48,409 bases of DNA. It comes from a virus. Lineage: Duplodnaviria; Heunggongvirae; Uroviricota; Caudoviricetes. This document shows, piece after piece, positions 6,637 through 19,899 of the stretch (position 1 is its first letter; each line of letters opens with the position of its first letter). The translations under genes and the position numbers were made by a program. Location of the stretch: IMG/VR virus record IMGVR_UViG_646564533_000016. The stretch is one strand, 5' to 3'. A model generated the notes under the pieces. It ran no database searches. It saw only the letters and a program-made list of their open reading frames with translations, and was not told where the DNA came from.

Positions 6637-6998
6637 TATGCTCCAGCCTCCGGTGCTTTTGGCATTACTGCCCAGTGAGTGATATTGACGCTTTCAATGT
6701 CCCCGACCTGAAATGTCCACTGCCATTCTCCGGTTTCTTTTTGTCCCCAGGTGTACCAGAGAGAACGCCAGCCAATCAGCCAGCCTTCTCCGTTAGCATC
6801 AAATAACAGAACACTTTCATTTGCTGGTGGTAGTTCAGCTGACACTGGTATTATTTTGTTTTCCAGTGCCGCACATTTAGCTTCAAGCGCATCGAATTTA
6901 CGTACTAGGTACTCAGCATTTGTTTCGTTCACTTTCAGATCTCGCGGTACACATTTCCCGCGAAGAAACCCTTCCATTTCGAAAACATTCATGCGCAT
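6636..6998 (-). CDS. Phage early protein, DUF551-like (YfdS-like by size and position)
   Basis: 120 aa; C-terminal ITHWAVMPKAPE motif; start/stop overlap with neighbours. Confidence 0.7.
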   Translation of the reverse strand: MRMNVFEMEGFLRGKCVPRDLKVNETNAEYLVRKFDALEAKCAALENKIIPVSAELPPANESVLLFDANGEGWLIGWRSLWYTWGQKETGEWQWTFQVGDIESVNITHWAVMPKAPEAGA

Positions 6999-7525
6999 TT
7001 GCGTAACTCCGATAACTCGTTAAAACGTTCCATAAACATCCCGTAGGCATGGCCTGGAGCCAGTGGAATCACTTTGAACATCTCTGTTGCCGGGATACCT
7101 TCCAATACAGGCCAGAAAGAGCCATCATCAAGTCCGAGATCGCGGCGTTCGGTTGCCAGCATGATGAGATCGGCATATTTCACTGGCGTGCTCATAACAG
7201 GAGGTAACCCGTATTTCTCACGGATTACGGCGTCTATTTTTTCTTCCATCCGTTTATAGTCAGGAAGAAGGCGTTTCAGTGGTGCGGGGATGTCCTGGCA
7301 ATATGCTTCTGTTGCATCATGCATTAACGCTTCAAAAGCAAATTCCTGCGGTACCAGCTGGCTGCAAAGCACCGCATGTTGGGCGACGCTGTAGAAGTGT
7401 GAAAGATGTCCTGCAAAGCGACAGATATTTGAAAGGGAAACCGCGATATCGTTAATCACGATGTCGTCTTTATTTATCCTGTCATAATAAAAATGCTTCC
7501 CGGAAAAAGTTTTAATAAATGACAT
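6989..7525 (-). CDS. yfdR: HD-domain phosphohydrolase (YfdR-like 5'-deoxynucleotidase)
   Basis: H...HD motif (QHAVL...MHDATEAY); ATG at 7525 has SD GGAG and gives 178 aa; the ORF track's longer 7552 start is a GTG without RBS. Confidence 0.75.
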   Translation of the reverse strand: MSFIKTFSGKHFYYDRINKDDIVINDIAVSLSNICRFAGHLSHFYSVAQHAVLCSQLVPQEFAFEALMHDATEAYCQDIPAPLKRLLPDYKRMEEKIDAVIREKYGLPPVMSTPVKYADLIMLATERRDLGLDDGSFWPVLEGIPATEMFKVIPLAPGHAYGMFMERFNELSELRKCA

Positions 7526-7652
7526 TTTGTTCTCCACGTATATGCGCTGCACCGCGCTGAATTCTGGTAAAAGGAAGCCATCACCATCCGGCGATTATTG
7601 AGTAAATTATGTTTCCATAAATGCCCCCGCAGGGGCATTTGCAGTAATGAAA

Positions 7653-8477
7653 TCAGGCGGTGAAAGTACCAATAAAGGTTTCTACTTTGCTGTCTTTAAA
7701 TTTCTCAACAAGCAGATCACGAAATTCGTTAGCCATTTCTTCCTGCACCGCTTCCAGCTGAATAATGCGCAGAACCAGTACAGGACGATCGCCAGTGATA
7801 ATGCTGAGGCGTAATTTAAACGGACGTTCTTTAAGGCCTTCAAACGGAACGCATTTAAATTCAAATGCCACTGGCATAATGTCTTTAGTCTTCGCTTCGA
7901 CAGACTCCATCAGGGAGCGTTTGCCGCTGAAGTCATTATCTTCAAAATCAGCGGTCTGGTTTGCTTCAATCGTGATTTTACGGACCGCCGCAGCCGCTTT
8001 TGTTGCCTGAATGGTGTCACCATTAGCATCAAAGCCCACAAGGTAGTCGGCCCAGTCTTCAATCCATTCTGCCAGTGATTTCTGGGAGTTACGCTCGCCA
8101 TTAACAGACAACAGAGCAGAGAACGGTGCTGTCTTTTTCAGTTTGAGAGTGGCGGTGTTATCTGCGTGACCTGGTTCATCAATAGTACCCAGGTTAAGCA
8201 CACTGACGGCACGCATATTATCAGCATCGATAAAGCAGCGGGTGCCTTCATCTGCAAGATCTTTAGAATAACGGGTAAAGTCATCGATGCTGGCAGTGGA
8301 AAGCGCACCACGGAAACGGAAGCGATTTAAATTAAATTTTTCCAGATCATGAATGCGGAAATTCTCAGGCAATGCCACAGCATCGGCACCAATCTTACTG
8401 ATAATTTCATTAACACCCTGAGCAGAAATAAGGGCATGGATTTGATTAATTGCGGTTGCGTCTAAGTTCTGAGACAT
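7653..8477 (-). CDS. yfdQ: YfdQ-like phage protein (DUF2303 family)
   Basis: 274 aa, same size and position as CPS-53 YfdQ; family assigned from memory. Confidence 0.7.
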
Positions 8478-8542
8478 AATAAGTCCTCACTATATAAAGA
8501 TATTCAGTGATGAGATAAATAATCAGTTAATTAAGAACGATA

Positions 8543-8905
8543 TTAATGACCTGCTGCGCGGAGTTTTCCGTCAGGTTCACCAGCAAGAGTCAGTAATTGT
8601 CCCTGGTCTTCCTGCAGAATAGTCAGGCGACCACCGCGATTGACATACATCGGCGTTTCGGTGGTGTCTTCTTCGGAAATTTTCCCGCGGTTAGTCGGGC
8701 GAACATACGAGAGTTTGTGTTTGATTTTCACACGATTCTCATCAAACGGTTCGATTTCCAGGTTGAGCGAGACCTTACCTTTGGTTTTCGTGTTCATCAC
8801 ACCGGAAGCGACTTCACTGAGAACTGCGCCGATTTTGGTTTCAAATACGCCGCCGTCCAGCTCCCCAATAAATGCCTGCACATCAGTACTGCGTTCGCTA
8901 GCCAT
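8543..8905 (-). CDS. Phage early protein (YfdP-like by size and position), first gene of the early-left operon
   Basis: Internal ATG at 8905 (MASERSTDVQAF...) with SD GGAG; 120 aa; the upstream extension to 9136 lacks an RBS. Confidence 0.65.
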   Translation of the reverse strand: MASERSTDVQAFIGELDGGVFETKIGAVLSEVASGVMNTKTKGKVSLNLEIEPFDENRVKIKHKLSYVRPTNRGKISEEDTTETPMYVNRGGRLTILQEDQGQLLTLAGEPDGKLRAAGH

Positions 8906-9513
8906 TTTGCTGCTCCTCATCATATCGACCCTGCAAGGTCGGTTGGTTTCTCCACAAAACGGAGAAGAACACCTGCGGTGGCAGCCGCCCGGATGGATTG
9001 GGTTATGAGCCCGTCGTCCGGTGATGCTCTTCTCTGTTTTGTAAAAAGAGCGGTACCAGCCGGAAGCAAGGGTACAAACTGGTACCGCCAAAGCAGTGGC
9101 TGTTGTGGTGGGGTTGTCACTCAGGCGTATGGTCAACCTGACAATCCGGTGTCCTCAACGGGGAAAGAGTAACCCCGCCATACTTACCGCCGCGCCATTT
9201 CGCGGATTACCACAACGCTGAGAGCACTTAGCCAGTTACGGCACCACACTTTGTCGCGGCTCCATAAATGCCCTCATCGTTGCACCCTGGTCTCTTCCCA
9301 GGCGTCAAACCGAATCGCCACGCTGGTTAGGCGTCTTATCAGCATCATCATTGACTTGCACATTCCGGCTACCTGGTTTGTTTGCCCGAGCAAGGAGTGG
9401 ATTGTCCCCTTTAACGTCCCCAGACCGCTAACGACGCATGTGCCATACGCCGTGTTACAACCAAATTTTGTTAGTACCTTGTTTGTTTGTCTGGAAAGAA
9501 AGATAAAATGAAG

Positions 9514-9552
9514 TTGCGCATTATGCAAGTGTTTTTGTTGCGAGATATGCAA
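9514..9552. promoter_or_regulatory. Putative left operator sites (two 15-bp TTGCG-N6-TGCAA half-palindromes) next to the cI terminator
   Basis: TTGCGCATTATGCAA (9514..9528) and TTGCGAGATATGCAA (9538..9552) resemble TTGCGCGTTAAGCAA in the cI-cro intergenic region. Confidence 0.45.
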
Positions 9553-9554
9553 TT

Positions 9555-9590
9555 TAAAGGGTAATGAAAAGCCACCTTTGGGTGGCTAAT
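9555..9590 (-). terminator. Intrinsic terminator downstream of cI
   Basis: Hairpin AGCCACC-TTTG-GGTGGCT followed on the minus strand by a T-rich tract. Confidence 0.6.
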
Positions 9591-9607
9591 TGATGAGGAG
9601 GTAAGGG

Positions 9608-10300
9608 TTAATTGTGTCGCTTAAGGGTTTGTGACTGGCTGATTAAGACCTTTCCAAAGACCATAAACCGGTGTTCATTTTCGCTGGTAATTCCCCATTC
9701 ACGGTAAATCTGGTTATCAGAAATCACCAGTAGTTTGTCAGGTATCATTTGCAGTCGTTTGACATAAATTTTATCATCAAAACCAAATACATAGATACCA
9801 TCTCCATCAAACTGATTGATACTGACATCAACGAAGATGAGATCTCCTGGCTCAATGGTTGGACACATACTGTCCCCACGAACGTTGATAACTTTAATGT
9901 GATTGGCTGGCCGTCCGCCAAACATCGATACAGCATTATCAGTTCTGTATTCAATGGCATGAATCACATCAATGACATCACCGCCCTGGATAAGGCCATT
10001 TCCCGCACTGGCACTGACATCCAGCATTTCAATACGGAATACATCCTTCACCTGCGCAACATCCTCACTAATACTGTTTTTACATACAGTATTACTTTTG
10101 AAGTCTGAGGTAAAGAGATCAGCAATATCAACACCTAAGCTCCTGGCAATATTACTCAGGGCTTGTTCAGTGAATTGTTTCTGCTTACCTGTTTCCAGGC
10201 GTGAGATATTCGCCGCATCCACTCCTATTGCTTCAGCGAGATCGGCGATTTTCATGTTCTTCGCCTGGCGAAGTTGTCTGACTCGGTTTCCTATGTTCAT
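9608..10300 (-). CDS. CI-type prophage repressor (HTH_XRE N-terminus plus S24 LexA-like autopeptidase)
   Basis: 230 aa; HTH (IADLAEAIGVDAANISRLETGK); peptidase motifs GDSM (Ser) and KRL (Lys); no SD before ATG, suggesting a leaderless pRM-type transcript. Confidence 0.9.
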   Translation of the reverse strand: MNIGNRVRQLRQAKNMKIADLAEAIGVDAANISRLETGKQKQFTEQALSNIARSLGVDIADLFTSDFKSNTVCKNSISEDVAQVKDVFRIEMLDVSASAGNGLIQGGDVIDVIHAIEYRTDNAVSMFGGRPANHIKVINVRGDSMCPTIEPGDLIFVDVSINQFDGDGIYVFGFDDKIYVKRLQMIPDKLLVISDNQIYREWGITSENEHRFMVFGKVLISQSQTLKRHN

Positions 10301-10397
10301 GCGTTTATTACATTTCTTTATTGCGCGTTAAGCAAATCAACTTGCGCAAAATATTTGCGTGAAATAATATGCTCATCACGCAATATGTGGAGGTCAT
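10301..10397. promoter_or_regulatory. Divergent immunity promoter/operator region (oR, pRM/pR analogue)
   Basis: Operator-like TTGCGCGTTAAGCAA (10321..10335) and palindrome CGCAAA-ATA-TTTGCG (10345..10359); putative pR -35 TTGCGC (10342..10347) and -10 TAATAT (10365..10370) with 17-nt spacer; cro RBS GGAGG. Confidence 0.6.
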
Positions 10398-10658
10398 ATG
10401 CAATCACCATTACGGAATGTGCGTAAGGCGCACGGATTTACTTTGCAGCATGTTGCTGCTGGCGTTCAGGTCAATCCAGCGACGCTGAGTCGTATTGAAA
10501 GACTGGAACAAATTCCATCTATCGATCTTGCAGAACGTCTGGCCAATTTTTTTAAGGGTGAAATCAGCGAAATGCAGATTCTTTATCCGGCACGTTTTCA
10601 ATCTAGCCAAAACCAGAATGGGTTTAAACCACAGGAACAGGAGGTAAGCCGTGGGTAA
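10398..10658 (+). CDS. Cro-like HTH regulator
   Basis: 86 aa; HTH (FTLQHVAAGVQVNPATLSRIE); divergent from cI. Confidence 0.85.
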   Translation: MQSPLRNVRKAHGFTLQHVAAGVQVNPATLSRIERLEQIPSIDLAERLANFFKGEISEMQILYPARFQSSQNQNGFKPQEQEVSRG

Positions 10659-11202
10659 TCATCACTGGAAAGTGGAAAAACAGCCTGAGTGGTACGTGAA
10701 AGCTGTCAGAAAAACTATCGCGGCGTTGCCGGGGGGGTACGCTGAAGCTGCTGAGTGGCTGGATGTAACAGAGAACGCATTATTTAACCGCCTTCGTGCC
10801 GATGGCGATCAGATTTTCCCGCTGGGATGGGCAATGATTTTACAACGTGCTGGTGGCACTCACTTCATTGCTGACGCTGTGGCGCAGTCTGCAAATGGCG
10901 TCTTTGTGTCTCTTCCTGACGTCGAGGATGTGGACAATGCCGATATTAACCAGCGTTTACTGGAAGTCATTGAACAGATCGGCAGTTATTCAAAACAGAT
11001 TCGTTCGGCAATCGAAGACGGTGTAGTGGAACCGCATGAGAAGACAGCAATTAACGACGAGCTGTACCTCTCAATTTCGAAGCTGCAGGAGCATGCAGCA
11101 CTTGTCTACAAAATTTTTTGCGTTTCAGAAAGTAATGACGCCCGCGAGTGTGCAGCTCCGGGCGTCGTGGCGTTTTGTGTCCGTGGAGAAACTAACGCAT
11201 GA
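10651..11202 (+). CDS. CII-like phage regulatory protein (putative)
   Basis: 183 aa; GTG start preceded by strong SD AGGAGG; occupies the cII position after cro; family assignment uncertain. Confidence 0.55.
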
Positions 11203-11537
11203 ACAGTTTAACAACACACTACCGTCGCTCGCAACTGATTGCGCTTCCTGTACCGGGTGGAAAAGCGAAGGTGGAGTATTGCTATGCAGTAAATGTACCA
11301 GGTGACAGGGAAATTGTAACCCACAGCTTTGCTGAGTGGGCTGTGGGGGATTTCAACCGGCAGAAGGAGACAGTCCTTTGCGACAAGTTAACCGCTGGTT
11401 CAAAGATCACTACGGAGTGCCCGTCAGAGTCATTCGTTGGGAGCCGGAAACACAACGGGTTATCTACCTCCGTGAAGGCTATGAGCATGAGTGCTTCAGC
11501 CCGCTCGAACAGTTTCGTCGTAAATTCAGGGAAATAG
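11199..11537 (+). CDS. Hypothetical protein; reading frame apparently disrupted (second overlapping frame 11336..11557)
   Basis: Frame A looks protein-like at its 5' end, frame B at its 3' end (…[31 protein letters not shown]); frame B has no ATG. Confidence 0.3.
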
Positions 11538-11546
11538 AGGTCGGTC

Positions 11547-12488
11547 ATGAGCACTAAATTAACCGGCTATGTATGGGATGGTTGCGCTGCGTCAGGCATG
11601 AAATTATCCAGCGTGGCAATTATGGCCCGCCTGGCTGATTTCAGTAATGACGAAGGTGTGTGCTGGCCATCAATTGAAACTATTGCCCGTCAGATTGGCG
11701 CGGGGATGAGTACCGTCAGAACGGCTATCGCACGGCTGGAAGCAGAAGGCTGGTTAACGCGTAAGGCGCGTCGCCAGGGTAACCGCAATGCGTCGAATGT
11801 TTATCAGCTTAACGTTGCGAAGCTTCAGGCAGCGGCATTTTCTCAACTGTCAGATTCTGACCCGTCAAAATCTGACGCATCAAAATCTGACCCGTCAAAA
11901 TTTGATGCGTCGAAATCTGGCAAAAAAGCGGGTTTTCACCCGTCAGAATCTGGCGGGGATCCGTCAGTAAAATCAAAACATGATCCGTCAGATAAAAAAC
12001 CTTCTCGTCCGGACGCTTCGCAACCGGACACGCAGACGGCTGAACAGGATTTTTTAACTCGCCATCCTGATGCGGTTGTATTCAGCCCTAAAAAGCGCCA
12101 GTGGGGAACGCAGGATGATTTGACCTGCGCACAGTGGCTCTGGAAAAAAATCATTGCCCTGTACGAGCAGGCCGCCGAATGTGACGGCGAGGTGGTTCGT
12201 CCCAAAGAACCGAACTGGACAGCATGGGCAAACGAAATTCGCCTGATGTGTGTGCAGGATGGTCGTACTCACAAACAAATCTGCGAGATGTACAGCCGCG
12301 TCAGCCGCGATCCGTTCTGGTGCCGTAACGTGCTCAGCCCGTCGAAGTTGCGGGAAAAATGGGATGAGCTTTCCCTGCGCTTATCGCCGTCCGTCAGCAC
12401 GCACACAGAAAAACGTGAAGACCCGTACTTCAAAGCCAGTTACGACAACGTGGACTACAGCCAGATCCCGGCAGGATTCAGGGGGTGA
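11547..12488 (+). CDS. Replication initiator, O-like (N-terminal HTH, low-complexity linker that carries the iterons)
   Basis: 313 aa; SD GAGG; N-terminal HTH (SIETIARQIGAGMSTVRTAIARLEAEGWL); SDPSKSDASKSDPSKFDASKS linker encoded by tandem DNA repeats. Confidence 0.7.
   Translation: MSTKLTGYVWDGCAASGMKLSSVAIMARLADFSNDEGVCWPSIETIARQIGAGMSTVRTAIARLEAEGWLTRKARRQGNRNASNVYQLNVAKLQAAAFSQLSDSDPSKSDASKSDPSKFDASKSGKKAGFHPSESGGDPSVKSKHDPSDKKPSRPDASQPDTQTAEQDFLTRHPDAVVFSPKKRQWGTQDDLTCAQWLWKKIIALYEQAAECDGEVVRPKEPNWTAWANEIRLMCVQDGRTHKQICEMYSRVSRDPFWCRNVLSPSKLREKWDELSLRLSPSVSTHTEKREDPYFKASYDNVDYSQIPAGFRG
11855..12000. repeat. Iteron-like direct repeats (about seven CCGTCA(A/G)AAT(C/T)TG units) inside the O-like gene; putative origin of replication
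   Basis: gacccgtcaaaatctgac / gcatcaaaatctgac / ccgtcaaaatttgat / gcgtcgaaatctggc / ccgtcagaatctggc / ccgtcagtaaaatca / ccgtcagataaaaaa, followed by an A/T-richer stretch. Confidence 0.55.
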
Positions 12489-12490
12489 TC

Positions 12491-12979
12491 ATGAGTCTTT
12501 TGAATGACGTTCAGAAATTCATTGAAGCCCATCCGGGCTGTACTTCCGGAGACATTGCAGATGCTTTTGCTGGTTACTCACGGCAGCGCGTTCTGCAGTC
12601 AGCAAGCAAGTTACGTCAGAGTGGGCGTGTGGCTCACCGTTGTGAAGGAGATACACGCAGACATTTCCCGCGCCTGACTGAGAGAGCGCAGGAGCCGGAA
12701 CCACAATCTGTTCGTGAAACCAGACCTGTGCGCAATTTCTATGTCGGCACTAACGACCCCCGGGTGATTTTGTGCCTGACCCGCCAGGCTGAAGAACTGG
12801 AGTCCAGGGGCTTATTCCGTCGAGCTGCAACGGTGTGGATGGCGGCATTCCGTGAAAGCCACTCCCAGCCAGAACGAAACAATTTTCTGGCGCATCGTGA
12901 GCGGTGCTTACGGAAAAGCAGCAAGCGCGCTGCATCGGGTGAAGAGTGGTATCTGTCAGGGAATTACGTGGGGGCTTAA
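12491..12979 (+). CDS. Putative winged-helix / PerC-like transcriptional regulator
   Basis: ATG at 12491 with SD GGGGGTGA, overlapping the O-like stop; motif GLFRRAATVWMAAF; weak family assignment. Confidence 0.5.
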   Translation: MSLLNDVQKFIEAHPGCTSGDIADAFAGYSRQRVLQSASKLRQSGRVAHRCEGDTRRHFPRLTERAQEPEPQSVRETRPVRNFYVGTNDPRVILCLTRQAEELESRGLFRRAATVWMAAFRESHSQPERNNFLAHRERCLRKSSKRAASGEEWYLSGNYVGA

Positions 12980-13632
12980 TGAGTAATAAATATTGCCAGG
13001 CGCTGGTGGAGCTGCGGAACAAACCAGCCCATGAACTGAAGGAAGTGGGCGATCAGTGGCGCACGCCGGACAACATTTTCTGGGGAATTAACACCCTGTT
13101 TGGCCCGTTTGTTCTGGATCTGTTTACTGATGGTGATAACGCCAAATGTGCCGCTTATTACACTGCGGAAGACAACGCGCTGGCGCATGACTGGTCAGAA
13201 CGTCTTGCGGAGCTTAAAGGTGCTGCCTTTGGTAATCCCCCGTACAGCCGCGCCAGTCAGCATGAGGGGCAATACATCACCGGCATGCGTTACATCATGA
13301 AACATGCCAGTGCTATGCGTGATAAAGGCGGGCGCTATGTTTTCCTGATCAAAGCTGCCACCAGCGAAGTGTGGTGGCCGGAAGATGCAGACCATATTGC
13401 TTTTATTCGCGGGCGTATTGGTTTTGAACTGCCTGCCTGGTTTATCCCGAAGGATGAGAAGCAGGTGCCGACAGGCGCTTTCTTCGCTGGTGCTATTGCT
13501 GTTTTCGACAAGACCTGGAAGGGACCGGCAATCAGCTACATCGGGCGCGATGAACTTGAGGCATGTGGTGAGGCGTTTCTGGCGCAGGTTCGCCAGCAGG
13601 CGGAAAAACTGGTCAGGGAGATGGCGGCATGA
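12979..13632 (+). CDS. Phage orphan DNA N6-adenine methyltransferase (Dam-type)
   Basis: FGNPPYS catalytic motif; ATG at 12979 overlaps the previous stop (TAATG); preceded by GGGG. Confidence 0.85.
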   Translation: MSNKYCQALVELRNKPAHELKEVGDQWRTPDNIFWGINTLFGPFVLDLFTDGDNAKCAAYYTAEDNALAHDWSERLAELKGAAFGNPPYSRASQHEGQYITGMRYIMKHASAMRDKGGRYVFLIKAATSEVWWPEDADHIAFIRGRIGFELPAWFIPKDEKQVPTGAFFAGAIAVFDKTWKGPAISYIGRDELEACGEAFLAQVRQQAEKLVREMAA

Positions 13633-13955
13633 CGACGTTAACTCAATGCCAGCAGCAGGTGCTGGATATGCTGATTTCTTATCAGAAAGAACGTGGCTTC
13701 CCGCCAACCAATCAGGAGGTGGCAACCATGCTGGGATACCGTTCAGTGAATGCAGCGGTGGAGCATCTTCGCGCACTGGAGAAAAAAGGCGTCATCACGA
13801 TAAAGCGTGGTGTGGCCCGGGGGATCACGCTTCATACCGTGGTGAAGGACGACGACAGCGAGGCGGTCGGGATTATCCGCTCACTGCTTGCCGGTGAGGA
13901 AAACGCCAGGCTGCGTGCAGCCCATTGGTTACATGAGAGAGGCCTGAAAGTATGA
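13629..13955 (+). CDS. LexA-type winged-helix DNA-binding protein (LexA N-terminal domain only, no peptidase)
   Basis: 108 aa; QQQVLDMLISYQKERGFPPTNQEVATMLGYRSVNAAVEHLRALEKKGVI resembles the LexA DNA-binding domain; ATGA overlap with Dam. Confidence 0.6.
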   Translation: MTTLTQCQQQVLDMLISYQKERGFPPTNQEVATMLGYRSVNAAVEHLRALEKKGVITIKRGVARGITLHTVVKDDDSEAVGIIRSLLAGEENARLRAAHWLHERGLKV

Positions 13956-14347
13956 AGCTGCTCCTGCCTTTTCCGCCCAGCGTGAACACGTACTGGCGAC
14001 ACCCCAACAAAGGGGCGTTTGCTGGTAAGAGCCTGATAAGCGCGGCGGGGCGAAAATTCCAGAGCGCGGCGTGTGCAGCAATAGTTGAGCAGTTACGTCG
14101 TCTGCCGAAACCAACGTCGGCACCTGCTTCAGTGGAGATCGTGTTGTTTCCTCCGGATAACCGGATCCGCGATCTGGACAACTATAACAAGGCGCTGTTT
14201 GACGCCCTGACCCACGCGGGTGTGTGGGAAGACGACAGTCAGGTGAAAAGAATGCTGGTGGAGTGGGGACCGGTTATCCCGGAGGGGAAGGTCGAGATCA
14301 CTATCAGTAAGTACGAAAAAGCGAGTTGCAAATTAGCAACTCGGTAA
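13952..14347 (+). CDS. rusA: Holliday-junction resolvase RusA
   Basis: 131 aa; LPFPPSVNTYW...DLDNYNKALFDAL...GVWEDDSQV; SD GAGAGAGG. Confidence 0.9.
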   Translation: MKLLLPFPPSVNTYWRHPNKGAFAGKSLISAAGRKFQSAACAAIVEQLRRLPKPTSAPASVEIVLFPPDNRIRDLDNYNKALFDALTHAGVWEDDSQVKRMLVEWGPVIPEGKVEITISKYEKASCKLATR

Positions 14348-14509
14348 CGGAATTGAGCAACACCCTAAATTTGGGTATTACCTCGTTAAAGATACTGTAT
14401 TTATGAACAGTGTATCCTTGATAACTATTAAAAATCGCAGTAAGTTCATCCGGCATCAACGAAAAGGGAGTGCAGTCCCGCTCGTGGATAAAAATTTGTG
14501 GAGAAACCA

Positions 14510-15325
14510 ATGAATCAGTTGCTTGTAATTGATGGCGTTTCTGTGCGCCAGTACTTCGAATCTAACTACTGTCTTAACGACCTTCAGAAAGCTGCTCTTC
14601 TTGCCGCTGGTGAGAATCGCTCCTCCCGTTCGCTGGAAGTTCACGAGTTTATGCGTCGTCCTGAAACGAAGGCTCTTGTGGAATTATTGGAAGAAGAAAC
14701 TACGGGAGATTCCCGTAGTATTCCTGTCATCACCATTCAGGGGCGCAATGGTGGGACGTATGTCTGTAAAGAGCTGGTCTATGCATATGCAATGTGGATC
14801 AGCCCGGCATTCAGCTTAAAAGTGATACGTACTTTTGATGCGCTTCATAATTCATCACCAGAAGAAACCACATCCGACAAAATTAAATCCGGGGTCATTC
14901 TGCTTGAATCAGCAGCAAAGACTCTAAATCTGTCAAACTCCTCGAAACTTGGTGCATACCAGAAATTATCAAAGGTAGCTGGTCTTCCTGAACTTATGCC
15001 GATCTATGCCATTGATGCACCTGCTGATGCGCCAGATGGTTCAAGCCGCCCTACGCTGTCGCTGAGTGCACTGCTGAAGCAGTATGGTATCCGCCTGACG
15101 GCTAATCAGGCATATCACCAGATGGCGAAGCTGGGGATCGTTGAACAACGCGAACGATACAGTCGTACCGCGATTAACAACATCAAAAAATTCTGGTCGC
15201 TGACCGCGAAAGGCTGCATGTTCGGCAAGAACATCACCAGTCCTGCAAATCCGCGCGAGACGCAGCCGCATTTCTTCGAATCCCGATTCCCTGAGCTGTT
15301 AAAGCTGCTCGATACCGTTCATTGA
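14510..15325 (+). CDS. KilA-N domain protein (antirepressor-like)
   Basis: ATG at 14510 with SD GGAG; GTYVCKELVYAYAMWISPAFSLKVIRTFD matches the KilA-N core. Confidence 0.7.
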   Translation: MNQLLVIDGVSVRQYFESNYCLNDLQKAALLAAGENRSSRSLEVHEFMRRPETKALVELLEEETTGDSRSIPVITIQGRNGGTYVCKELVYAYAMWISPAFSLKVIRTFDALHNSSPEETTSDKIKSGVILLESAAKTLNLSNSSKLGAYQKLSKVAGLPELMPIYAIDAPADAPDGSSRPTLSLSALLKQYGIRLTANQAYHQMAKLGIVEQRERYSRTAINNIKKFWSLTAKGCMFGKNITSPANPRETQPHFFESRFPELLKLLDTVH

Positions 15326-15326
15326 G

Positions 15327-16322
15327 GTGACCGTGAGAGCACTACTGACCCCTGAAATTGCCCCGCGTATGGGGATCGTATTGTTCAGACCAGGTTCAGA
15401 GCTGATGCCCTTGTTTATGCAGGGGCGTGTCCTGCTGGAGCCTGAGCCGGAACGTTATTCATCTTTCGCCAGTGGTGCCGTTCCGGCGGCATCACAACCG
15501 CTGGCGGATGATCCTGCCGTTCGGGCCGTGTTCCGCAATGAGGCAGTGATCCGTCGTGCTGGTGGCGTGGAATGTCTTGAAAGCTGGTTACTTCGTGAAA
15601 AAGGCTGCCAGTGGCCTCATTCCGACTGGCACAGCGAGAACATGACAACAATGCGACACGCTCCGGGCGCAATCCGTCTGTGCTGGCACTGCGATAACCA
15701 GCTGCGCGATCAGTTCACGGAACGGCTGGAATCAATGGCAACGGATAACTGTGCCCGCTGGGTGTTGTCTGTTGTGCGTCGGGATCTCGGTTTTGATGAC
15801 AGTCATGTTGTGACAATGCCGGAACTGTGCTGGTGGCTGATTCGTAATGATCTGGCGGATGCCTTACCGGAAAGTGCAGCCCGTAAGGCACTGAGATTAC
15901 CGAAGCCTGTTGTGCCGTCTGTTACCCGGGAAAGTGACCTTGTGCCTTCGGTTCCTGCCACCAGCATCATCCAGGATAAGGCGAAAAAGGTGCTGGCGCT
16001 GAAAGTGGATCCGGAGTCGCCGGAGTCTTTTATGTTACGCCCAAAACGTCACCGCTGGGTTAATGAAAAGTACACGCGCTGGGTTAAGACGCAGCCGTGC
16101 GCATGTTGTGGAAAACCTGCTGATGATCCCCACCACCTGATAGGCCACGGTCAGGGGGGAATGGGTACAAAAGCGCATGACCTTTTTGTGTTGCCTTTGT
16201 GCAGAAAGCATCACGACGAGCTGCATGCGGATACCGTGGCATTTGAAGAGAAGTATGGCTCCCAGCTGGAGCTGATATTTCGTTTTATCGATCGTGCGCT
16301 GGCAATAGGCGTACTGGCGTAA
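15327..16322 (+). CDS. DUF968-type phage protein with C-terminal Cys/His (HNH-like) motif
   Basis: C-terminus CACCGKPADDPHHLIGHGQGG...LCRKHHDELH; start uncertain (GTG 15327 or 15333 after GAGG). Confidence 0.65.
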   Translation: MTVRALLTPEIAPRMGIVLFRPGSELMPLFMQGRVLLEPEPERYSSFASGAVPAASQPLADDPAVRAVFRNEAVIRRAGGVECLESWLLREKGCQWPHSDWHSENMTTMRHAPGAIRLCWHCDNQLRDQFTERLESMATDNCARWVLSVVRRDLGFDDSHVVTMPELCWWLIRNDLADALPESAARKALRLPKPVVPSVTRESDLVPSVPATSIIQDKAKKVLALKVDPESPESFMLRPKRHRWVNEKYTRWVKTQPCACCGKPADDPHHLIGHGQGGMGTKAHDLFVLPLCRKHHDELHADTVAFEEKYGSQLELIFRFIDRALAIGVLA

Positions 16323-16335
16323 GTGGAGAACGAGC

Positions 16336-17088
16336 ATGAACCTTGAAGCCTTACCAAAATATTACTCCCCAAAATCTCCAAAATTGAGTGATGACGCACC
16401 GGCGACAGGCTCTGGTGGTTTAACGATTACGGATGTGATGGCTGCGCAGGGGATGGTGCAGTCGAAAGCACCGCTTGGGTTTGCCTTATTCCTGGCAAAA
16501 GTTGGTGTTCAGGATCCTCAGTTTGCGATTGAAGGTCTGCTCAATTACGCGATGGCACTGGATAACCCGACATTGAATAAATTGAGTGAAGAAACCCGGC
16601 TACAGATTATTCCTTACCTTGTGAATTTTGCCTTTGCTGATTATTCCAGGTCTGCGGCAAGTAAGGCTCGTTGTGAGCATTGTGCTGGTACTGGATTTCA
16701 TAATGTATTGCGCGAAGTGGTGAAACACTCCAGAAGCGGGGAATCTGTTATCAAAGAAGAGTGGGTGAAGGAACTATGTCAGCATTGCCATGGTAAGGGA
16801 GAAGTCAGCACAGCGTGCAGAGGGTGTAAGGGTAAAGGTATTGTCTTGGATGAAAAAAGGACCCGGCTTCATGGCACACCTGTTTATAAGATTTGTGGGC
16901 GTTGCAATGGAAAACGGTTTAGTCGTTTACCAACCACACTGGCGCGGCATCATGTCCAGAAGCTGGTACCGGACCTGAGTGATTATCAGTGGTATAAAGG
17001 ATATGCAAATGTCATTGATAAACTGGTTACAAAGTGCTGGCAGGAGGAATCTTACGCTGAAGCACAATTGAGAAAGGTGACGAGATAA
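16336..17088 (+). CDS. Late-gene antiterminator Q
   Basis: 250 aa; Cys-rich zinc-binding region (CEHCAGTG...CQHCHGKG...CRGCKGKG...CGRCNGK); followed directly by the pR'/tR' unit; SD GGAG. Confidence 0.85.
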   Translation: MNLEALPKYYSPKSPKLSDDAPATGSGGLTITDVMAAQGMVQSKAPLGFALFLAKVGVQDPQFAIEGLLNYAMALDNPTLNKLSEETRLQIIPYLVNFAFADYSRSAASKARCEHCAGTGFHNVLREVVKHSRSGESVIKEEWVKELCQHCHGKGEVSTACRGCKGKGIVLDEKRTRLHGTPVYKICGRCNGKRFSRLPTTLARHHVQKLVPDLSDYQWYKGYANVIDKLVTKCWQEESYAEAQLRKVTR

Positions 17089-17119
17089 GTGATTTTCGCC
17101 GAAGATGGCGACGTGATGC

Positions 17120-17148
17120 TTGCATTTTTCAAAAAATATGGATAAAAT
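17120..17148 (+). promoter_or_regulatory. pR'-like late promoter (Q-utilisation region)
   Basis: -35 TTGCAT (17120..17125), 17-nt spacer, -10 TAAAAT (17143..17148), immediately after Q. Confidence 0.6.
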
Positions 17149-17194
17149 TTTTTCAACGATGGGCTTTGTATACCCGAAGTTAAGAAAAAGTAGA

Positions 17195-17219
17195 AAACCC
17201 GCTGATGAGCGGGTTTTTG
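17195..17219 (+). terminator. tR'-like intrinsic terminator (Q antitermination target)
   Basis: CCCGC-TGATGA-GCGGG hairpin followed by TTTTT, about 50 nt downstream of the putative -10. Confidence 0.8.
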
Positions 17220-17510
17220 TGCTTTAAATAGGGTAATAGAGATGTTGAATCTCATTACGGGATTCATGTTAGTTTACTTATTATTTATCGGGTGACTTTG
17301 TTTTTTGCCTGATGTTTAAAATGTTTTCTTCCAGTACAATGTCCATAGATACAATGAGTCTGCTTATTACATTATTAGCAGAGCTATTAAGGTCAAAGTA
17401 CAGCATAAGCTTTTAAAGCCAATCAACCAGTCATCAAGACAGACGGGTTTATTCATGAAAACTCTCCATGTTTGATTCGATGGGGCTTGAAGTTAAAGCT
17501 TTAATATAGC

Positions 17511-17723
17511 TCATGAAAGGTAAACATTGGCAGCTGATGGTCCACGCAGACCATTTATCCGGCAAAATTCCACGCGTAATCCGGTGGTAATTTCTTCTGC
17601 ATCGCGGAGATTGAGCGCTGAAACATGAAGCTGGACATCGATACGACCATCGGATGGGGTTATAAGACCTTTGCCGCTTTTGCCGTCAAAGGTTTTGAGA
17701 ATTCCTGTCATTTTACGGGACAA
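17511..17723 (-). CDS. cspF: Cold-shock-like protein, CspF/CspH type
   Basis: 70 aa; MSRKMTGI(L/V)[18 protein letters not shown]...[13 protein letters not shown]. Confidence 0.85.
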
Positions 17724-18023
17724 AAAAATTCCTTAATACTGATAACTTGGCGCACTATACACACGTTCCTGAAGAAAGCTATAGTTTTTTGATGGGGTTG
17801 AAGATGGCTGGATGTCTAAAATAAACATTGCTTCATATGTTCAACTATGCGTTAATGATTGCGTCGGTTTGAAGAACAGACGATATACGAAGTAGTTTAC
17901 TAAAGCAGTTCTCATTTCAGGTGTTATTCACTTATTCCTTCTTTGAGTCTCTCCAATTAAGTACGAAGTCGTTTCTGTTATACAAGCCATTTATGCCGAA
18001 AGGCTCAAGTTAAGGAATGTAGA

Positions 18024-18239
18024 ATGTCAAATAAAATGACTGGTTTAGTAAAATGGTTTAACGCTGATAAAGGTTTTGGCTTTATTTCTCCTGTTGATGG
18101 TAGTAAAGATGTGTTTGTGCATTTTTCTGCGATTCAGAATGATAATTATCGAACCTTATTTGAAGGTCAAAAGGTTACCTTCTCTGTAGAGAGTGGTGCT
18201 AAAGGTCCTGCAGCAGCAAATGTCATAATTACTGATTAA
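18024..18239 (+). CDS. cspB: Cold-shock protein CspB-like
   Basis: 71 aa; [38 protein letters not shown]; divergent from the cspF-like gene. Confidence 0.9.
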
Positions 18240-18520
18240 AATTCATAGTTTGTCTGTATACGATAACGAAGAAGGCTGATGCCTGAGTGGAGATACAGAC
18301 AGAGTGGTGAATATTGGATCTCTTTAATAAAGAGTAAGGAGGTCCAATACATGAAACAATGGCCAGCATATTTGGCAATAACTTAATCAGGAAAAGTATG
18401 CTAACCATTGTGGTGAAGTGCAGGTTTGCTGCATGAATAGTTTTACAGCAGAAGCTAACTGCTGGCATAGCAAAACAAAGTGCGTAAGTGGATGACTCCC
18501 ACAAAAAGTACCACAATATT

Positions 18521-18546
18521 AAACCCGCTCAGGCGGGTTTTTTATT
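18521..18546 (+). terminator. Intrinsic terminator downstream of the cspB-like gene
   Basis: ACCCGC-TCAG-GCGGGT hairpin plus T-run. Confidence 0.75.
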
Positions 18547-18602
18547 ATCTGCTTTAAATATGTTATTAAAATATAAAAAATACTTGTTACGAATAAAATC
18601 AA

Positions 18603-18773
18603 TCAAGCTACAGCTTTAAGATTTGTCTGGAATACTTTGTTGCAATGAGGGCAGATCAAAAGGGCACCTTTTTGTACTCTTGAAAAACTGTGTTCTGACT
18701 CTTGGGTGCAGTTTGGGCAGGAACATTTAACGAGATAATTACGGCGTGATTTTGAGTCTTTACGTTCTGACAT
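18603..18773 (-). CDS. Small zinc-ribbon protein (two CxxC pairs)
   Basis: ATG at 18773 (MSERKDSKSRRNYLVKCSCPNCTQ...CPHCNK) with SD AGGAAA; 56 aa. Confidence 0.55.
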   Translation of the reverse strand: MSERKDSKSRRNYLVKCSCPNCTQESEHSFSRVQKGALLICPHCNKVFQTNLKAVA

Positions 18774-18991
18774 AGGCTTTTCCTGTATAAATGGCCGTAT
18801 ACAGTACACTAAATATGAAAACATATCTCGTATTATTATTTAATATATGATTTTCTTTTAAAATAATTACCCACATTTTTAATGTGTCTGTTTTTTAGCG
18901 CCGTTGAGAACAACGTTTGCTATAAAAACTACCCCATAGACTCCGATCTTTTCAAACATATTGCACCATCTGTGTACATCGGGGTGAGGAT

Positions 18992-19207
18992 ATGAAATCA
19001 ATGGATAAGTTAACAACAGGTATCGCCTATGGCACATCGGCTGGTAATGCTGGTTTCTGGGCATTGCAGTTACTCGATAAAGTAACTCCGTCACAGTGGG
19101 CTGCAATCGGTGTGCTGGGTAGTCTGGTATTTGGCTTGCTGACGTACCTGACAAACCTTTATTTCAAGATTAAAGAAGACAAGCGTAAGGTTGCACGGGG
19201 AGAGTAA
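18992..19207 (+). CDS. Class II holin (phage-21 S21-type pinholin) with dual-start motif
   Basis: 71 aa; MKSMDK... with Met1/Met4 dual start; two TMDs ([17 protein letters not shown] and [18 protein letters not shown]). Confidence 0.9.
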
Positions 19208-19211
19208 TTCA

Positions 19212-19556
19212 ATGACACAAAACTATGAACTGATTGTGAAAGGGATCCGCAATTTTGAGAATAAAGTTGCGGTAACTGTAGCATTAAGGGACAAAAAACG
19301 CTTTGACGGTGAAATTTTTGACCTGGACATCTCGCTGGACCGTGTTGAAGGTGCCGCGCTGGAGTTTTATGAGGCAGCAGCCAGAAGGAGCATCAGACAG
19401 GTCTTCCTGGAAGTTGCAGCCGGGTTATGTGAAGGGGATGAGCAGTCGCCGGAAAAGCGCCCCGTAATTTTAGAGGCGCAGAATGTGTGGATAACCTACA
19501 AAGGAAAGCTACCAGGAAGAATTACTGATTCTCTGAAGACTCCACCGAAATGGTAA
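19212..19556 (+). CDS. Hypothetical protein in the lysis cassette
   Basis: ATG at 19212 (MTQNYELIVKG...) preceded by GGGGAGAG; 114 aa. Confidence 0.6.
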   Translation: MTQNYELIVKGIRNFENKVAVTVALRDKKRFDGEIFDLDISLDRVEGAALEFYEAAARRSIRQVFLEVAAGLCEGDEQSPEKRPVILEAQNVWITYKGKLPGRITDSLKTPPKW

Positions 19557-19794: not shown

Positions 19795-19899
19795 AAATAA
19801 TCCTCTTGATTGTCTTTACCTTTTCCCCGCCTGATTCAACAGGCCGGGACAGATAAACATATCCAGGGTTCAGAAACCGATAAATCCTGATAAATATCC

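What the first reader, a model, noticed from the sequence alone, without database searches (positions are those of the whole stretch)
11855..12000. Iteron array embedded in the O-like initiator gene marks a likely intact origin
At least seven direct repeats with the core CCGTCA(A/G)AAT(C/T)TG, spaced 15 to 21 bp apart, encode the low-complexity SDPSKSDASKS linker and are followed by a more A/T-rich stretch. This mirrors lambda, where ori iterons lie inside O. No P/DnaC-like helicase loader follows (the next gene is a small regulator), which is unusual and raises the question of how the host helicase is recruited.
Basis: partly seen in the sequence, partly recalled or inferred. Interest (0 to 1): 0.45.

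Follow-up and report, generated by a model that had tools for sequence, protein, structure and literature searches.

The report
Phage origin inside loader-less initiator gene
The repeats very probably mark the replication origin of an intact lambda-like prophage, sited inside its initiator gene; the phage has no helicase-loader gene, but its initiator ends in the same short tail as the host restart protein DnaT, a testable clue to how the host helicase is recruited.

Summary
Six 13-bp near-palindromes (GTCARAATCTGRC) lie at 11849-11954, five of them 15 bp apart. An A-rich block follows at 11958-12002 with two GATC-led repeats. All of this lies in the codons of a predicted disordered linker of a 313-aa initiator.

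The initiator has an HTH_36 winged-helix N-domain, which is not lambda O-like, and a C-domain homologous to lambda O (E 8e-26). Diverged homologues all carry an array at the same place, and its sequence tracks the N-domain type. Synonymous codons are frozen there (0.74-0.92 identical against 0.38-0.48 in the domains), so selection acts on the DNA. I read it as a lambda-type origin (about 0.8).

No P, DnaC or DnaB homologue is in the window. Such "O-only" modules are known (34 of 314 lambdoid phages) and unexplained.

The last residues, SQIPAGFRG, match DnaT's flexible tail (SQIPPGFRG). Among 79 related initiators the tail type predicts the neighbouring loader:
- W-acidic tails: lambda P next door in 39 of 39.
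- GFRG tails: P in 0 of 21, DnaC in 3, nothing in 18.

In viral contigs, 77 of 78 DnaC-like genes follow a gene that ends in this tail. I infer that the tail recruits host DnaB-DnaC (about 0.4, untested).

The parts
11547..12488 (+). Initiator gene (313 aa). It consists of an HTH_36 winged-helix N-domain, a disordered linker, a lambda-O-type C-domain and a DnaT-like tail.
   Evidence: ORF. Pfam HTH_36, E 4e-11. PHROG 391 'replication initiation O-like', E 1e-135. BLASTP to lambda O, E 8e-26. AF2 domain map.
11547..11840 (+). N-terminal winged-helix DNA-binding domain (aa 1-98), the presumed iteron reader.
   Evidence: Pfam HTH_36 at aa 23-70. The AF2 model is helical/winged over aa 1-98. Foldseek best hits are MarR/ArsR-type wHTH proteins, TMt up to 0.66. 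The array sequence co-varies with this domain's type.
11849..11921 (.). Five tandem 13-bp near-palindromic units (GTCARAATCTGAC) at 15-bp phase. These are the candidate initiator-binding sites (iterons).
   Evidence: Homologous arrays occur at the same codons in diverged genes. Identical-codon fraction is 0.74, against 0.38-0.48 in the domains.
11942..11954 (.). Sixth unit, GTCAGAATCTGGC, 33 bp after the fifth. It is the most conserved copy across genera.
   Evidence: CCAGAATCTGG is kept in 13 diverged loci. Identical-codon fraction is 0.80.
11958..12002 (.). A-rich block holding two GATC-led direct repeats, GATCCGTCAGTAAAA and GATCCGTCAGATAAA, 24 bp apart. This is the candidate DNA-unwinding element.
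   Evidence: Repeat D7. AT reaches 0.70, the maximum in the gene, with 20 A against 9 T; GATC at 11958 and 11982. The DNA is conserved in 13 diverged loci. Identical-codon fraction is 0.92, the highest in the gene.
12007..12029 (.). Short inverted repeat, GTCCGG(N11)CCGGAC, to the right of the A-rich block. It may be part of the origin; confidence is low.
   Evidence: Sequence. The block GTCCGGNCGCTNCGCAACCNGAC is conserved in diverged loci. Identical-codon fraction is 0.73 for codons 153-170.
12039..12392 (+). C-terminal helical domain (aa 165-282), homologous to the C-domains of lambda O and phi80 gp15.
   Evidence: AF2 pLDDT is 80-97. No solved structure has this fold.
12447..12485 (+). C-terminal tail (aa 301-313, ...NVDYSQIPAGFRG). 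It matches the C-terminus of E. coli DnaT at 8 of 9 residues and is the candidate adaptor for host DnaC/DnaB.
   Evidence: P308, G310, F311 and R312 are invariant in homologues. The DnaT family tail is conserved. Tail type correlates with the neighbouring loader.
12480..12485 (+). AGGGGG, the last two codons of the tail (Arg-Gly). It doubles as the Shine-Dalgarno sequence for the downstream gene, whose ATG is at 12491.
12485..12979 (+). Downstream PerC-family gene (YfdN-like). It is not a helicase loader by any profile. The likely true start is the ATG at 12491.
   Evidence: Pfam PerC, E 7e-8. PHROG 1324 'transcriptional activator'. Annotation in SfII and in RefSeq.

Best explanation
Region 11849-12030 is the replication origin of an intact lambdoid prophage of the SfII/SfIV/mEp460/LLS type. 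It is embedded in the linker-coding part of the phage's own initiator gene, as ori-lambda is embedded in O.

**Proposed mechanism.**
1. The initiator's N-terminal winged-helix (HTH_36) domain binds, probably as dimers, the six 13-bp palindromic units.
2. The resulting nucleoprotein complex strains and opens the adjacent A-rich block with its two GATC-led repeats (11958-12002).
3. The lambda-O-type C-domain and the flexible C-terminal tail then bring in the host replicative helicase.

The phage has no P, DnaC or DnaB gene. I propose that the tail (...SQIPAGFRG), the same motif that ends host DnaT, binds host DnaC or the DnaB6-DnaC6 complex, so that the initiator acts as its own adaptor.

**Shown here.** The repeats, their palindromic form and phase, the domain architecture, homology to lambda O, DNA-level selection over the array and A-rich block, covariation of array sequence with N-domain type, absence of any loader gene, the tail match to DnaT, and the association of tail type with loader type.

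**Inferred.** Binding, melting, and the partner of the tail.

**Likelihoods.** Origin identity about 0.8. Tail-mediated recruitment of host DnaB-DnaC about 0.4.
For: **Origin.**
- The repeats cluster far beyond chance.
- They lie in a predicted disordered linker, aa 102-164, at the position equivalent to the lambda and phi80 iterons.
- All 5 diverged homologue loci, and essentially all of 80 further loci, have an in-gene array at aa about 90-180.
- The array motif follows the N-domain type whatever the tail or loader. MS[TV]KL..YVWDG goes with TCAAAATCTGAC; GIKGNKLL variants go with TTCAGAATCTGAAC or GTCCAGAATCTGGAC; MSSKLHGLVWEG goes with TCAAATATTGA/TCAACGGTTGA.
- The identical-codon fraction among identical residues, over 72 pairs below 85% identity, is 0.38 in the N-domain and 0.48 in the C-domain. 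It is 0.74-0.80 in the array and 0.92 in the A-rich block.
- The block GATCCGTCAGTAAAwTCAAAAC..GATCC.T.AG is conserved from Escherichia to Providencia.
- The region is 99% identical to viable phages SfII, SfIV and Kati.

**No loader.**. Zheng et al. 2025 report the same for this module class.

**Tail.**
- It matches DnaT at 8 of 9 residues, and DnaT-family tails are conserved.
- Among distinct full-length O-CTD initiators, 39 of 39 with a W-acidic tail have lambda P next door. Of 21 with a GFRG tail, 0 have P, 3 have DnaC and 18 have nothing.
- In IMG/VR, 77 of 78 DnaC-like genes are preceded, 7 nt upstream, by a gene ending ..IPPGF(R/S)G. These genes fall into at least 3 unrelated initiator body families.
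- The same tail is fused to a different C-domain in phage 1720a-02.
- dnaT lies directly upstream of dnaC in E. coli.
- IPxGF and the Arg are kept through synonymous changes, with Arg coded by AGG, AGA, CGC, CGA or CGT.
Against: - No experiment shows binding, melting or autonomous replication for this family.
- The A-rich block is only moderately AT-rich (0.65-0.70).
- Repeat alignment in low-complexity sequence can inflate codon identity. Local mosaic recombination could also make this segment younger than its flanks.
- For the tail, the last codons (TTC AGG GGG TAA/TGA) also form the Shine-Dalgarno of the next gene. Part of the conservation, and of the tail-dnaC linkage, could therefore be a DNA-level or linkage effect.
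- The viral DnaC-like genes sampled are at least 81% identical, so they are not independent.
- The similarity to DnaT is confined to about 13-20 residues. The C-domain shows no fold match to the DnaT CTD, and profile comparison of the body gives only 43% probability.
- The literature places possible DnaB/DnaC recruitment on the DnaT N-domain, and the function of DnaT's tail is unknown.
- Eighteen of 21 GFRG modules lack DnaC. The tail could therefore equally target PriA, PriB, DnaB or ssDNA.
Confidence: 0.75

Rival explanations
1. The repeats are only a slippage-prone, low-complexity protein linker (SDPSK)n with no cis-acting role. The real origin lies elsewhere or is not sequence-specific.
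For: The region encodes a predicted disordered linker. Linker length and sequence vary greatly between homologues. Tandem 15-nt units are in frame, as codon repeats would be.
Against: Amino-acid identity is low in the array (0.36), yet identical residues use identical codons 74-92% of the time, against 38-48% in the folded domains. The units are palindromes. Array sequence tracks the N-domain type across recombinant backgrounds. The non-repetitive A-rich block is the most conserved DNA in the gene. Lambda and phi80 have experimentally annotated iterons at the same place.
Confidence: 0.06
2. The origin reading is right, but the helicase arrives by host replication restart or recombination-dependent replication. 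PriA-PriB-DnaT would act on an R-loop or D-loop, or on the initiator-opened bubble. The tail either plays no part or binds PriA/PriB rather than DnaC.
For: The prophage lacks a Rec module and carries 7 Chi sites on one strand against about 1 expected. This resembles phage LLS, whose growth is helped by RecBCD. A DnaT-type tail could equally mimic DnaT's contacts within the preprimosome, and the DnaT CTD docks on PriA. Eighteen of 21 GFRG-tail modules have no DnaC gene.
Against: The tail is tightly linked to DnaC-like genes in 77 of 78 viral loci, and dnaT-dnaC are adjacent. In the cryo-EM structures the PriA contact is made by the folded DnaT CTD, and PriB is bound by the linker, not by the tail. 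A sequence-specific iteron origin argues for origin-directed loading.
Confidence: 0.2
3. An unrecognised phage-encoded loader exists. Candidates are the PerC-family protein (12491-12979), which has an N-terminal winged-helix part, or another early gene of unknown function. Alternatively the lambda-O-type C-domain binds DnaB directly.
For: A small winged-helix gene (PerC-like or DUF1627) often follows GFRG-tail initiators. Several early genes have no known function. A second loader-less tail class (AWxxIW..., 15 loci) also exists.
Against: PerC-like genes also follow initiators with other tails (L043, L048, L049). They are absent from many GFRG loci. No ATPase, P-like or DciA-like profile hits any early gene.
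Confidence: 0.12
4. Host DnaA recruits DnaB-DnaC at this origin, as at iteron plasmids such as pSC101, P1, F and RK2.
For: Many Rep-plus-iteron replicons work this way (established knowledge).
Against: There is no DnaA box with at most 1 mismatch within 11000-13000. The only two, at 10929 and 10986, occur at background frequency, and the sole perfect box in the window is at 19486.
Confidence: 0.04

Closest known systems
Bacteriophage lambda ori / O protein (and phi80 ori / gp15)
   Same: The origin lies inside the initiator gene, in the linker between a DNA-binding N-domain and a C-domain. It has multiple palindromic binding sites followed by an A/T-rich block. The C-domain is homologous (E 8e-26 to O, 4e-25 to gp15). 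It sits in the same place in the cro-cII-replication operon.
   Different: The N-domain is HTH_36, not Phage_rep_O. The units are 13-bp sites at 15-bp phase (six copies), not 18-19-bp sites at 20-24 bp (four copies). There is no P or gene-14 loader. The C-terminal tail is IPxGFRG instead of lambda's NTDWI type.
'O-only' lambdoid replication modules (phage LLS, mEp460_4F5; Zheng, Casjens et al. 2025, PMC12315714)
   Same: The replication module consists of a single O homologue, with no helicase or loader. mEp460_4F5 matches this window at 98% identity (H15). The window likewise has no Rec module and is enriched in Chi sites.
   Different: That paper states that replication of this type is not understood, and in the passages I read it describes neither the iterons nor the tail. 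The origin anatomy and the link between tail and loader are additions made here.
E. coli DnaT (primosomal protein i) C-terminal flexible tail
   Same: The last 9 residues are SQIPAGFRG against SQIPPGFRG. Rac/YdaU-type phage tails match DnaT residues 160-179 at 16 of 20 positions. Both proteins act upstream of DnaB loading, and dnaT is followed by dnaC just as phage initiators with this tail are followed by DnaC-like genes.
   Different: The DnaT three-helix-bundle domain (PF17948) is not detectable, and there is no DnaT N-domain. DnaT is targeted by PriA/PriB to forks, whereas this protein is targeted by its own wHTH domain to iterons.
DopC/DopE (domesticated O/P pair; Brezellec et al. 2017, PMC5509034)
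   Same: DopC is an O-like protein with an HTH_36 N-domain joined to a DnaT C-terminal motif, detected by HHpred. This is a precedent for a link between HTH_36 initiators and DnaT.
   Different: DopC is chromosomal, has no iterons, lacks the lambda-O C-domain and is paired with a P-like DopE. Here the O C-domain and iterons are present and no P-like partner exists.
Iteron plasmids (Rep + iterons + DUE)
   Same: Both have repeated initiator sites next to an A/T-rich unwinding element, and both rely on host DnaB-DnaC.
   Different: Plasmid iterons are usually 17-22-bp direct repeats bound by Rep monomers, lie outside rep, and are accompanied by DnaA boxes. Here the sites are palindromic, lie inside the gene, and no DnaA box is present.

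Membership tests
Lambda-type origin (ori within the initiator gene) | Cluster of repeated initiator-binding sites in the linker-coding part of the initiator gene | tested here: met
   Six units lie at 11849-11954, codons 101-136. Lambda's iterons lie at codons about 117-145 of O.
Lambda-type origin (ori within the initiator gene) | A/T-rich unwinding region directly to the right of the repeats | tested here: met
   AT reaches 0.70 at 11964, the maximum in the gene and the 95.6th percentile of the window. The richness is modest. The block is conserved at the DNA level.
Lambda-type origin (ori within the initiator gene) | Initiator binds the repeats, and the fragment replicates autonomously | not testable with these tools
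   This needs footprinting and a replication assay. The only indirect support is 99% identity to viable phages SfII and SfIV.
Lambda O protein family | N-terminal Phage_rep_O domain (PF04492) | tested here: not met
   Pfam gives HTH_36 (PF13730) and no PF04492 hit. Lambda O itself hits PF04492 at E 6e-36.
Lambda O protein family | C-terminal domain homologous to that of lambda O | tested here: met
   BLASTP aligns aa 70-277 to O 78-270, E 8e-26. tblastn gives 39% identity over aa 166-277. PHROG 391 'replication initiation O-like'.
Lambda O-P module | Adjacent P-type helicase loader, and an O tail of the NTDWI/W-acidic type | tested here: not met
   No P homologue is in the window. The tail is IPAGFRG. 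All 39 W-acidic-tail relatives have P.
O-only lambdoid replication module (Zheng et al. 2025) | [quoted passage not shown] | tested here: met
.
DnaT (PF17948) | Three-helix-bundle ssDNA-binding domain | tested here: not met
   There is no Pfam hit and no PDB sequence hit to DnaT. Foldseek on the C-domain model finds no DnaT entry. hhalign on the body gives 43% probability.
DnaT (PF17948) | Conserved flexible C-terminal tail ...PDxxIP(P/R)GFRG | tested here: met
   Eight of 9 residues are identical at the exact C-terminus. DnaT-family tails are conserved. The hhalign tail columns have high confidence; overall E 1e-7.
DnaD-like / replisome-organiser initiators | DnaD_N winged helix plus a DDBH2-type C-domain | tested here: inconclusive
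   Pfam DnaD_N scores E 0.0013, below the cut-off. PHROG 2514 'DnaD-like helicase loader' scores E 3e-29 and Bacillus phage replisome organisers match aa 191-279. No PDB fold match was found.
Plasmid-type iteron origin | 17-22-bp direct repeats outside rep, with DnaA boxes | tested here: not met
   The units are 13-bp palindromes at 15-bp phase inside the gene. No DnaA box lies nearby.

The most novel reading that the evidence does not exclude
Lambda-O-type and unrelated phage initiators carry short, interchangeable C-terminal tails that specify which helicase-loading system they use. A W-acidic tail would pair with lambda P. An IPxGFRG tail would pair with DnaC. The same IPxGFRG peptide, as the flexible tail of host DnaT, would then be the long-sought element that recruits DnaB-DnaC during replication restart. 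The 3' end of dnaT together with dnaC would descend from a prophage 'initiator-tail + dnaC' module. O-only phages such as this one have dropped their own dnaC and use the host's DnaC through this tail.
Probability: 0.35. Interest if true: 0.8.

Novelty: new variant of a known kind. Interest (0 to 1): 0.6.

Why it matters
The origin itself is an expected, lambda-like arrangement with a different DNA-reading domain. It is useful for annotation but not surprising.

The interest lies in the missing loader. This module is present in about 29% of complete E. coli genomes. It also occurs in serotype-converting Shigella phages and, in part, in Stx2c phages. A 2025 survey of lambdoid phages states that replication of such O-only modules is not understood. 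Separately, how DnaT hands DnaB-DnaC to the restart primosome remains unknown after the 2026 preprimosome structures.

The shared tail, and its tight genomic coupling to DnaC-like genes, link the two problems. They reduce both to one cheap experiment: testing peptide binding, and testing tail deletion in both the phage initiator and DnaT. If the link holds, it would also explain how initiator bodies and loaders are shuffled in phage mosaics.

Tried and rejected
1. **C-domain as a DnaT-CTD or DnaD homologue: not supported.**
   - There is no Pfam or PDB sequence hit.
   - hhalign of an all-CTD profile against a DnaT profile gives 43% probability. The 94% obtained with the GFRG subset is carried by the tail columns.
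   - A confident AF2 model of aa 160-313 (pLDDT 81) has no PDB fold match at E below 2.
   - The full-length model only retrieves MarR/ArsR-type winged helices for the N-domain.
2. **phi80 gp15 as the closest relative, suggested by the name 'Replication protein 15' on a homologue: rejected.** Only the C-domain matches.
3. **DnaA boxes or an IHF site near the origin: none found.**
4. **A hidden loader among the early genes: none found** by Pfam, PHROGs or NCBIfam, or by tblastn with DnaC, lambda P and DnaB.
5. **The 'Eru' classification of Stx-phage replication regions.** It mentions HTH_36 proteins in several Eru types but gives no origin or mechanism.
6. **Literature on the DnaT tail.** I found only that it is a flexible 20-residue tail. 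Fujiyama et al. 2014 is not held in the library.
7. **A whole-database motif search for the tail: not attempted.** A motif of 9-13 residues cannot reach significance against 1.8 billion proteins.
8. **Strict 'tail means no loader' correlation: rejected.** Some GFRG-tail initiators are followed by DnaC-like genes, which redirected the hypothesis towards DnaC.
Full report
**1. What is there**

The window is a complete lambdoid prophage. Reading left to right, it carries:
- an integrase at 386-1609;
- cI at 9608-10300, followed by cro and cII;
- a replication gene, a nin-like region and Q;
- lysis, terminase, portal and tail genes, out to about 46.5 kb.

The 1.8 kb around the finding is 100% identical to several E. 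coli chromosomes. It is 97.5-98% identical to isolated phages SfII, SfIV, Kati, PhiR49 and others. A match covering at least 80% of that query is present in 1556 of 5426 complete E. coli genomes.

**2. The observation**

Within the 313-aa ORF at 11547-12488 there are six 13-bp units:
- 11849 GTCAGATTCTGAC
- 11864 GTCAAAATCTGAC
- 11879 ATCAAAATCTGAC
- 11894 GTCAAAATTTGAT
- 11909 GTCGAAATCTGGC
- 11942 GTCAGAATCTGGC

Two further CCGTCAG half-units lie inside GATCCGTCAG at 11958 and 11982.

TRF reports a 15-bp period (4.3 copies) and a slightly better 30-bp period. Shuffles give 4.75 matches for the whole window.

Only three copies match the stated core exactly, and the spacings are 15, 15, 15, 15, 33, 21 and 24.

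The stretch after the array is moderately A/T-rich. It peaks at 0.70 in a 40-bp window at 11964, the highest value in the gene and the 95.6th percentile of the window. It is strongly A-skewed on the coding strand.

**3. The protein**

- *N-domain.* Pfam finds an HTH_36 winged helix at aa 23-70 (E 4e-11) and no Phage_rep_O domain. Lambda O does have that domain.
- *C-domain.* The C-terminal half is homologous to lambda O (E 8e-26, aa 169-277 against O 176-270) and to phi80 gp15 (E 4e-25). PHROGs file the protein under 'replication initiation O-like'.
- *Predicted structure.* AlphaFold2 gives a winged-helix domain (aa 1-98), a disordered linker (102-164), a confident helical C-domain (165-282), a second disordered stretch (283-302) and a short tail. 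A separate model of aa 160-313 has pLDDT 81.

The repeats and the A-rich block are therefore encoded entirely in the disordered linker. The annotated iterons of lambda and phi80 occupy the same place in O and gp15.

**4. Is the DNA, rather than the peptide, under selection?**

I collected diverged homologues:
- five loci by exact-protein look-up;
- 80 loci from one genome per species.

*An array is always present at the same place.* Every family member has a tandem array in the linker, at aa about 90-180, with period 12, 15, 21-24 or 44-46 nt.

*The array sequence follows the N-domain type, not the tail or the neighbouring loader.*

| N-domain type | Array motif | Example loci |
|---|---|---|
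| MS[TV]KL..YVWDG | TCAAAATCTGAC | Window, L009, L014, L015, L029, and Providencia L021-L026, which have a different tail |
| GIKGNKLL variants | TTCAGAATCTGAAC or GTCCAGAATCTGGAC | L007, L008, L025 |
| MSSKLHGLVWEG | TCAAATATTGA / TCAACGGTTGA | L005 (DnaC next door); L018, L022, L032 (lambda P next door) |

This is the covariation between N-domain and iterons known from lambda, phi80 and P22 hybrids (established knowledge).

*Synonymous sites are frozen over the origin.* I aligned 13 genes by codon and used the 72 pairs below 85% protein identity. The measure is the fraction of identical residues that also use the identical codon.

| Segment | Identical-codon fraction |
|---|---|
| N-domain | 0.38 |
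| C-domain | 0.48 |
| Array | 0.74 |
| Last unit | 0.80 |
| A-rich block (codons 138-152) | 0.92 |
| Codons 153-170 | 0.73 |

No 12-codon window outside codons 103-165 exceeds 0.68.

*The A-rich block is conserved at the DNA level.* The DNA block GGTTTTCACCCGyCAGAATCTGGCGrs-GATCCGTCAGTAAAwTCAAAACAwGATCCrTyAGATAAAAAACC is recognisable from Escherichia, Klebsiella, Pantoea and Citrobacter to Providencia. Codon choice within it is fixed on rare A/T-rich codons such as GTA, TCA and AAA.

*What this shows.* This is direct evidence for a cis-acting DNA element over about 11853-12040. Two caveats apply:
- aligning repeats is partly arbitrary;
- mosaic recombination can make a segment locally younger than its flanks.

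**5. Anatomy of the proposed origin**

The parts, in order, are:
1. six palindromic sites (11849-11954);
2. an A-rich block with two GATC-led 15-mers 24 bp apart (11958-12002), reminiscent of the GATC-led 13-mers of oriC (my knowledge);
3. a small conserved inverted repeat (12007-12029).

There is no DnaA box or IHF consensus nearby. The region differs at 3 of 260 positions from phage SfII and at 1 of 260 from a Shigella flexneri prophage. 'Intact' is therefore reasonable.

**6. The missing loader**

- The next gene is PerC-family. It is followed by Dam, a LexA-DBD protein, RusA, KilA-N, DUF968/HNH and Q.
- tblastn with E. coli DnaC, lambda P and DnaB finds nothing in the whole window.
- The left-operon genes have no replication annotation.

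This matches Zheng, Casjens et al. 2025. They describe phage LLS, whose CI and Cro proteins are closest to those of mEp460_4F5, a phage that matches this window at 98% identity. LLS has only an O homologue. They count 34 of 314 lambdoid phages of this kind and state that replication of this type 'is not yet understood'.

**7. A lead: the tail**

*The match to DnaT.* The last nine residues, SQIPAGFRG, match the exact C-terminus of E. coli DnaT, SQIPPGFRG. Annotation pipelines apparently pick this up, since homologues are labelled 'primosomal protein I'.
- In 17 homologues down to 57% identity, P308, G310, F311 and R312 are invariant. The preceding 25 or so residues vary freely.
- In more than 100 DnaT clusters the tail (E/Q)PDxxIP(P/R)GFRG is conserved.
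- DnaT's last 20 residues are a 'highly flexible tail' (review).
- How DnaT recruits DnaB/DnaC is stated to be unknown even after the 2026 preprimosome structures.

*Tail classes and the neighbouring gene.* The relatives bearing a lambda-O-type C-domain fall into discrete tail classes. Counts below are of distinct full-length proteins.

| Tail class | n | lambda P next door | DnaC homologue next door | Neither |
|---|---|---|---|---|
| W-acidic (lambda NTDWI and WNxxEAWE types) | 39 | 39 | 0 | 0 |
| GFRG | 21 | 0 | 3 (48-51% identical to E. coli DnaC) | 18 |
| AWxxIW | 15 | 0 | 0 | 15 |
| GWKG | 2 | 0 | 0 | 2 |
| other | 2 | 2 | 0 | 0 |

Fisher's exact test for GFRG against W-acidic gives 1e-16, but the loci are not phylogenetically independent.

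*The reverse test.* I scanned IMG/VR with a DnaC-like profile. In 77 of 78 evaluable loci, the gene ending 7 nt upstream of the DnaC-like gene terminates in ...PDxxIPPGF(R/S)G. These upstream genes belong to at least three unrelated initiator body families:
- YdaU/DUF1376-like, 41 loci;
- O-CTD types, 24 loci;
- a 406-aa family, 5 loci.

The YdaU-type tail LRQVNTVSLPDSAIPPGFRG matches DnaT residues 160-179 at 16 of 20 positions. Phage 1720a-02 and Stx2c phages carry the window's exact tail on a different C-domain. In E. coli, dnaT is immediately followed by dnaC.

*What I infer.* The tail is a portable adaptor peptide coupled to DnaC-type loading. This phage, having no dnaC of its own, would use the host's.

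*Caveats.*
- The final codons (TTC AGG GGG TAA/TGA) also form the Shine-Dalgarno sequence of the next gene. Some of the conservation and linkage may therefore be a DNA-level effect.
- Against that, IPxGF and the Arg are kept through synonymous changes (AGG, AGA, CGC, CGA, CGT), and the motif persists where it is not terminal (L009, L046).
- The sampled viral DnaC-like genes are close relatives, at least 81% identical.
- The DnaT resemblance is limited to the tail. The C-domain has no fold match to DnaT or to anything else in the PDB, and the profile alignment of the body is weak.
- The partner of the tail could equally be PriA, PriB, DnaB or ssDNA.

*Precedent.* Brezellec et al. 2017 noted an HTH_36 O-like protein (DopC) carrying a DnaT C-terminal motif.

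**8. Verdict**

- The interpretation, an origin inside an O-like gene with no loader, is supported.
- The origin is a new variant of the lambda type, with an HTH_36 reader and 13-bp palindromes at 15-bp phase.
- The loader-less state is already known as an unexplained class.
- The added value is a concrete, cheaply testable hypothesis. It links O-only phage replication to the unsolved question of how DnaT recruits DnaB-DnaC.
- Confidence: origin about 0.8; tail-mediated use of host DnaB-DnaC about 0.4.

Noticed in passing
window 1792-5619 (+): A 1275-aa gene next to the integrase is a full-length match to the PADLOC Dsr1 model (defence-associated sirtuin; E 0, 2730 bits). In E. coli 2013C-4974 the equivalent position holds a shorter SIR2-family gene, with IS elements nearby.
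   Followed up: partly
window 6823-20318: There are seven Chi sites (GCTGGTGG) on the + strand and two on the - strand, against about 1 expected per strand. No recognisable Rec module is in the early-left operon. This is the 'no Rec module, high Chi' pattern that Zheng et al. 2025 describe for LLS-type phages.
   Followed up: partly
window 11958 and 11982; Dam gene 12946-13632: The two GATC sites in the candidate unwinding element are 24 bp apart and both are kept in 12 of 13 diverged loci. The phage encodes its own Dam-family methyltransferase 1 kb downstream. Methylation or SeqA-type control of this origin is conceivable but was not tested.
   Followed up: no
window 11199-11537 and 11336-11557 (+): Two overlapping ORFs in different frames lie just upstream of the initiator. 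One is a 112-aa ORF (PHROG 1170), annotated in phage SfII. The other is a DUF4222 ORF, annotated by RefSeq as a 59-aa protein. The annotations conflict, and both ORFs have strong family matches.
   Followed up: no
window 12485 / 12491: RefSeq starts the PerC-family gene at GTG 12485, overlapping the initiator's last codon. The AGGGGG Shine-Dalgarno at 12480-12485 fits the ATG at 12491, which is the start used in the SfII record.
   Followed up: partly
loci L021, L024, L026, L027, L047-L049, L052, L053, L063, L064, L067, L076, L079, L080: A second class of lambda-O-CTD initiators also lacks a loader. There are 15 distinct proteins, mostly from Providencia, Proteus, Edwardsiella and Sodalis. Their tail is ...AWxxIWxQAxEQAA, and no P, DnaC or DnaB homologue lies in the flanks. 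Their helicase recruitment is equally unexplained.
   Followed up: no
loci L007, L025, L045, L046 (gene after the initiator): A DUF1627-family protein with an N-terminal winged-helix-like segment recurs directly downstream of GFRG-tail initiators that lack DnaC. Its function is unknown, and it could be a cofactor.
   Followed up: no
locus L004 (E. coli 2013C-4974, NZ_CP027587 4870704-4912504): In this genome the identical replication module sits in a decayed, IS-ridden prophage remnant that lacks structural genes. It lies about 16 kb from the chromosomal dnaT-dnaC operon. The origin may persist in defective prophages, as oriJ does in Rac.
   Followed up: no
window ~12413 onward; Stx2c phage records H16-H25: Nucleotide homology to Stx2c-converting phages begins at about window 12413, just upstream of the tail codons, and runs into the PerC-family gene. 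This places a mosaic junction inside the initiator gene at the boundary between body and tail.
   Followed up: partly
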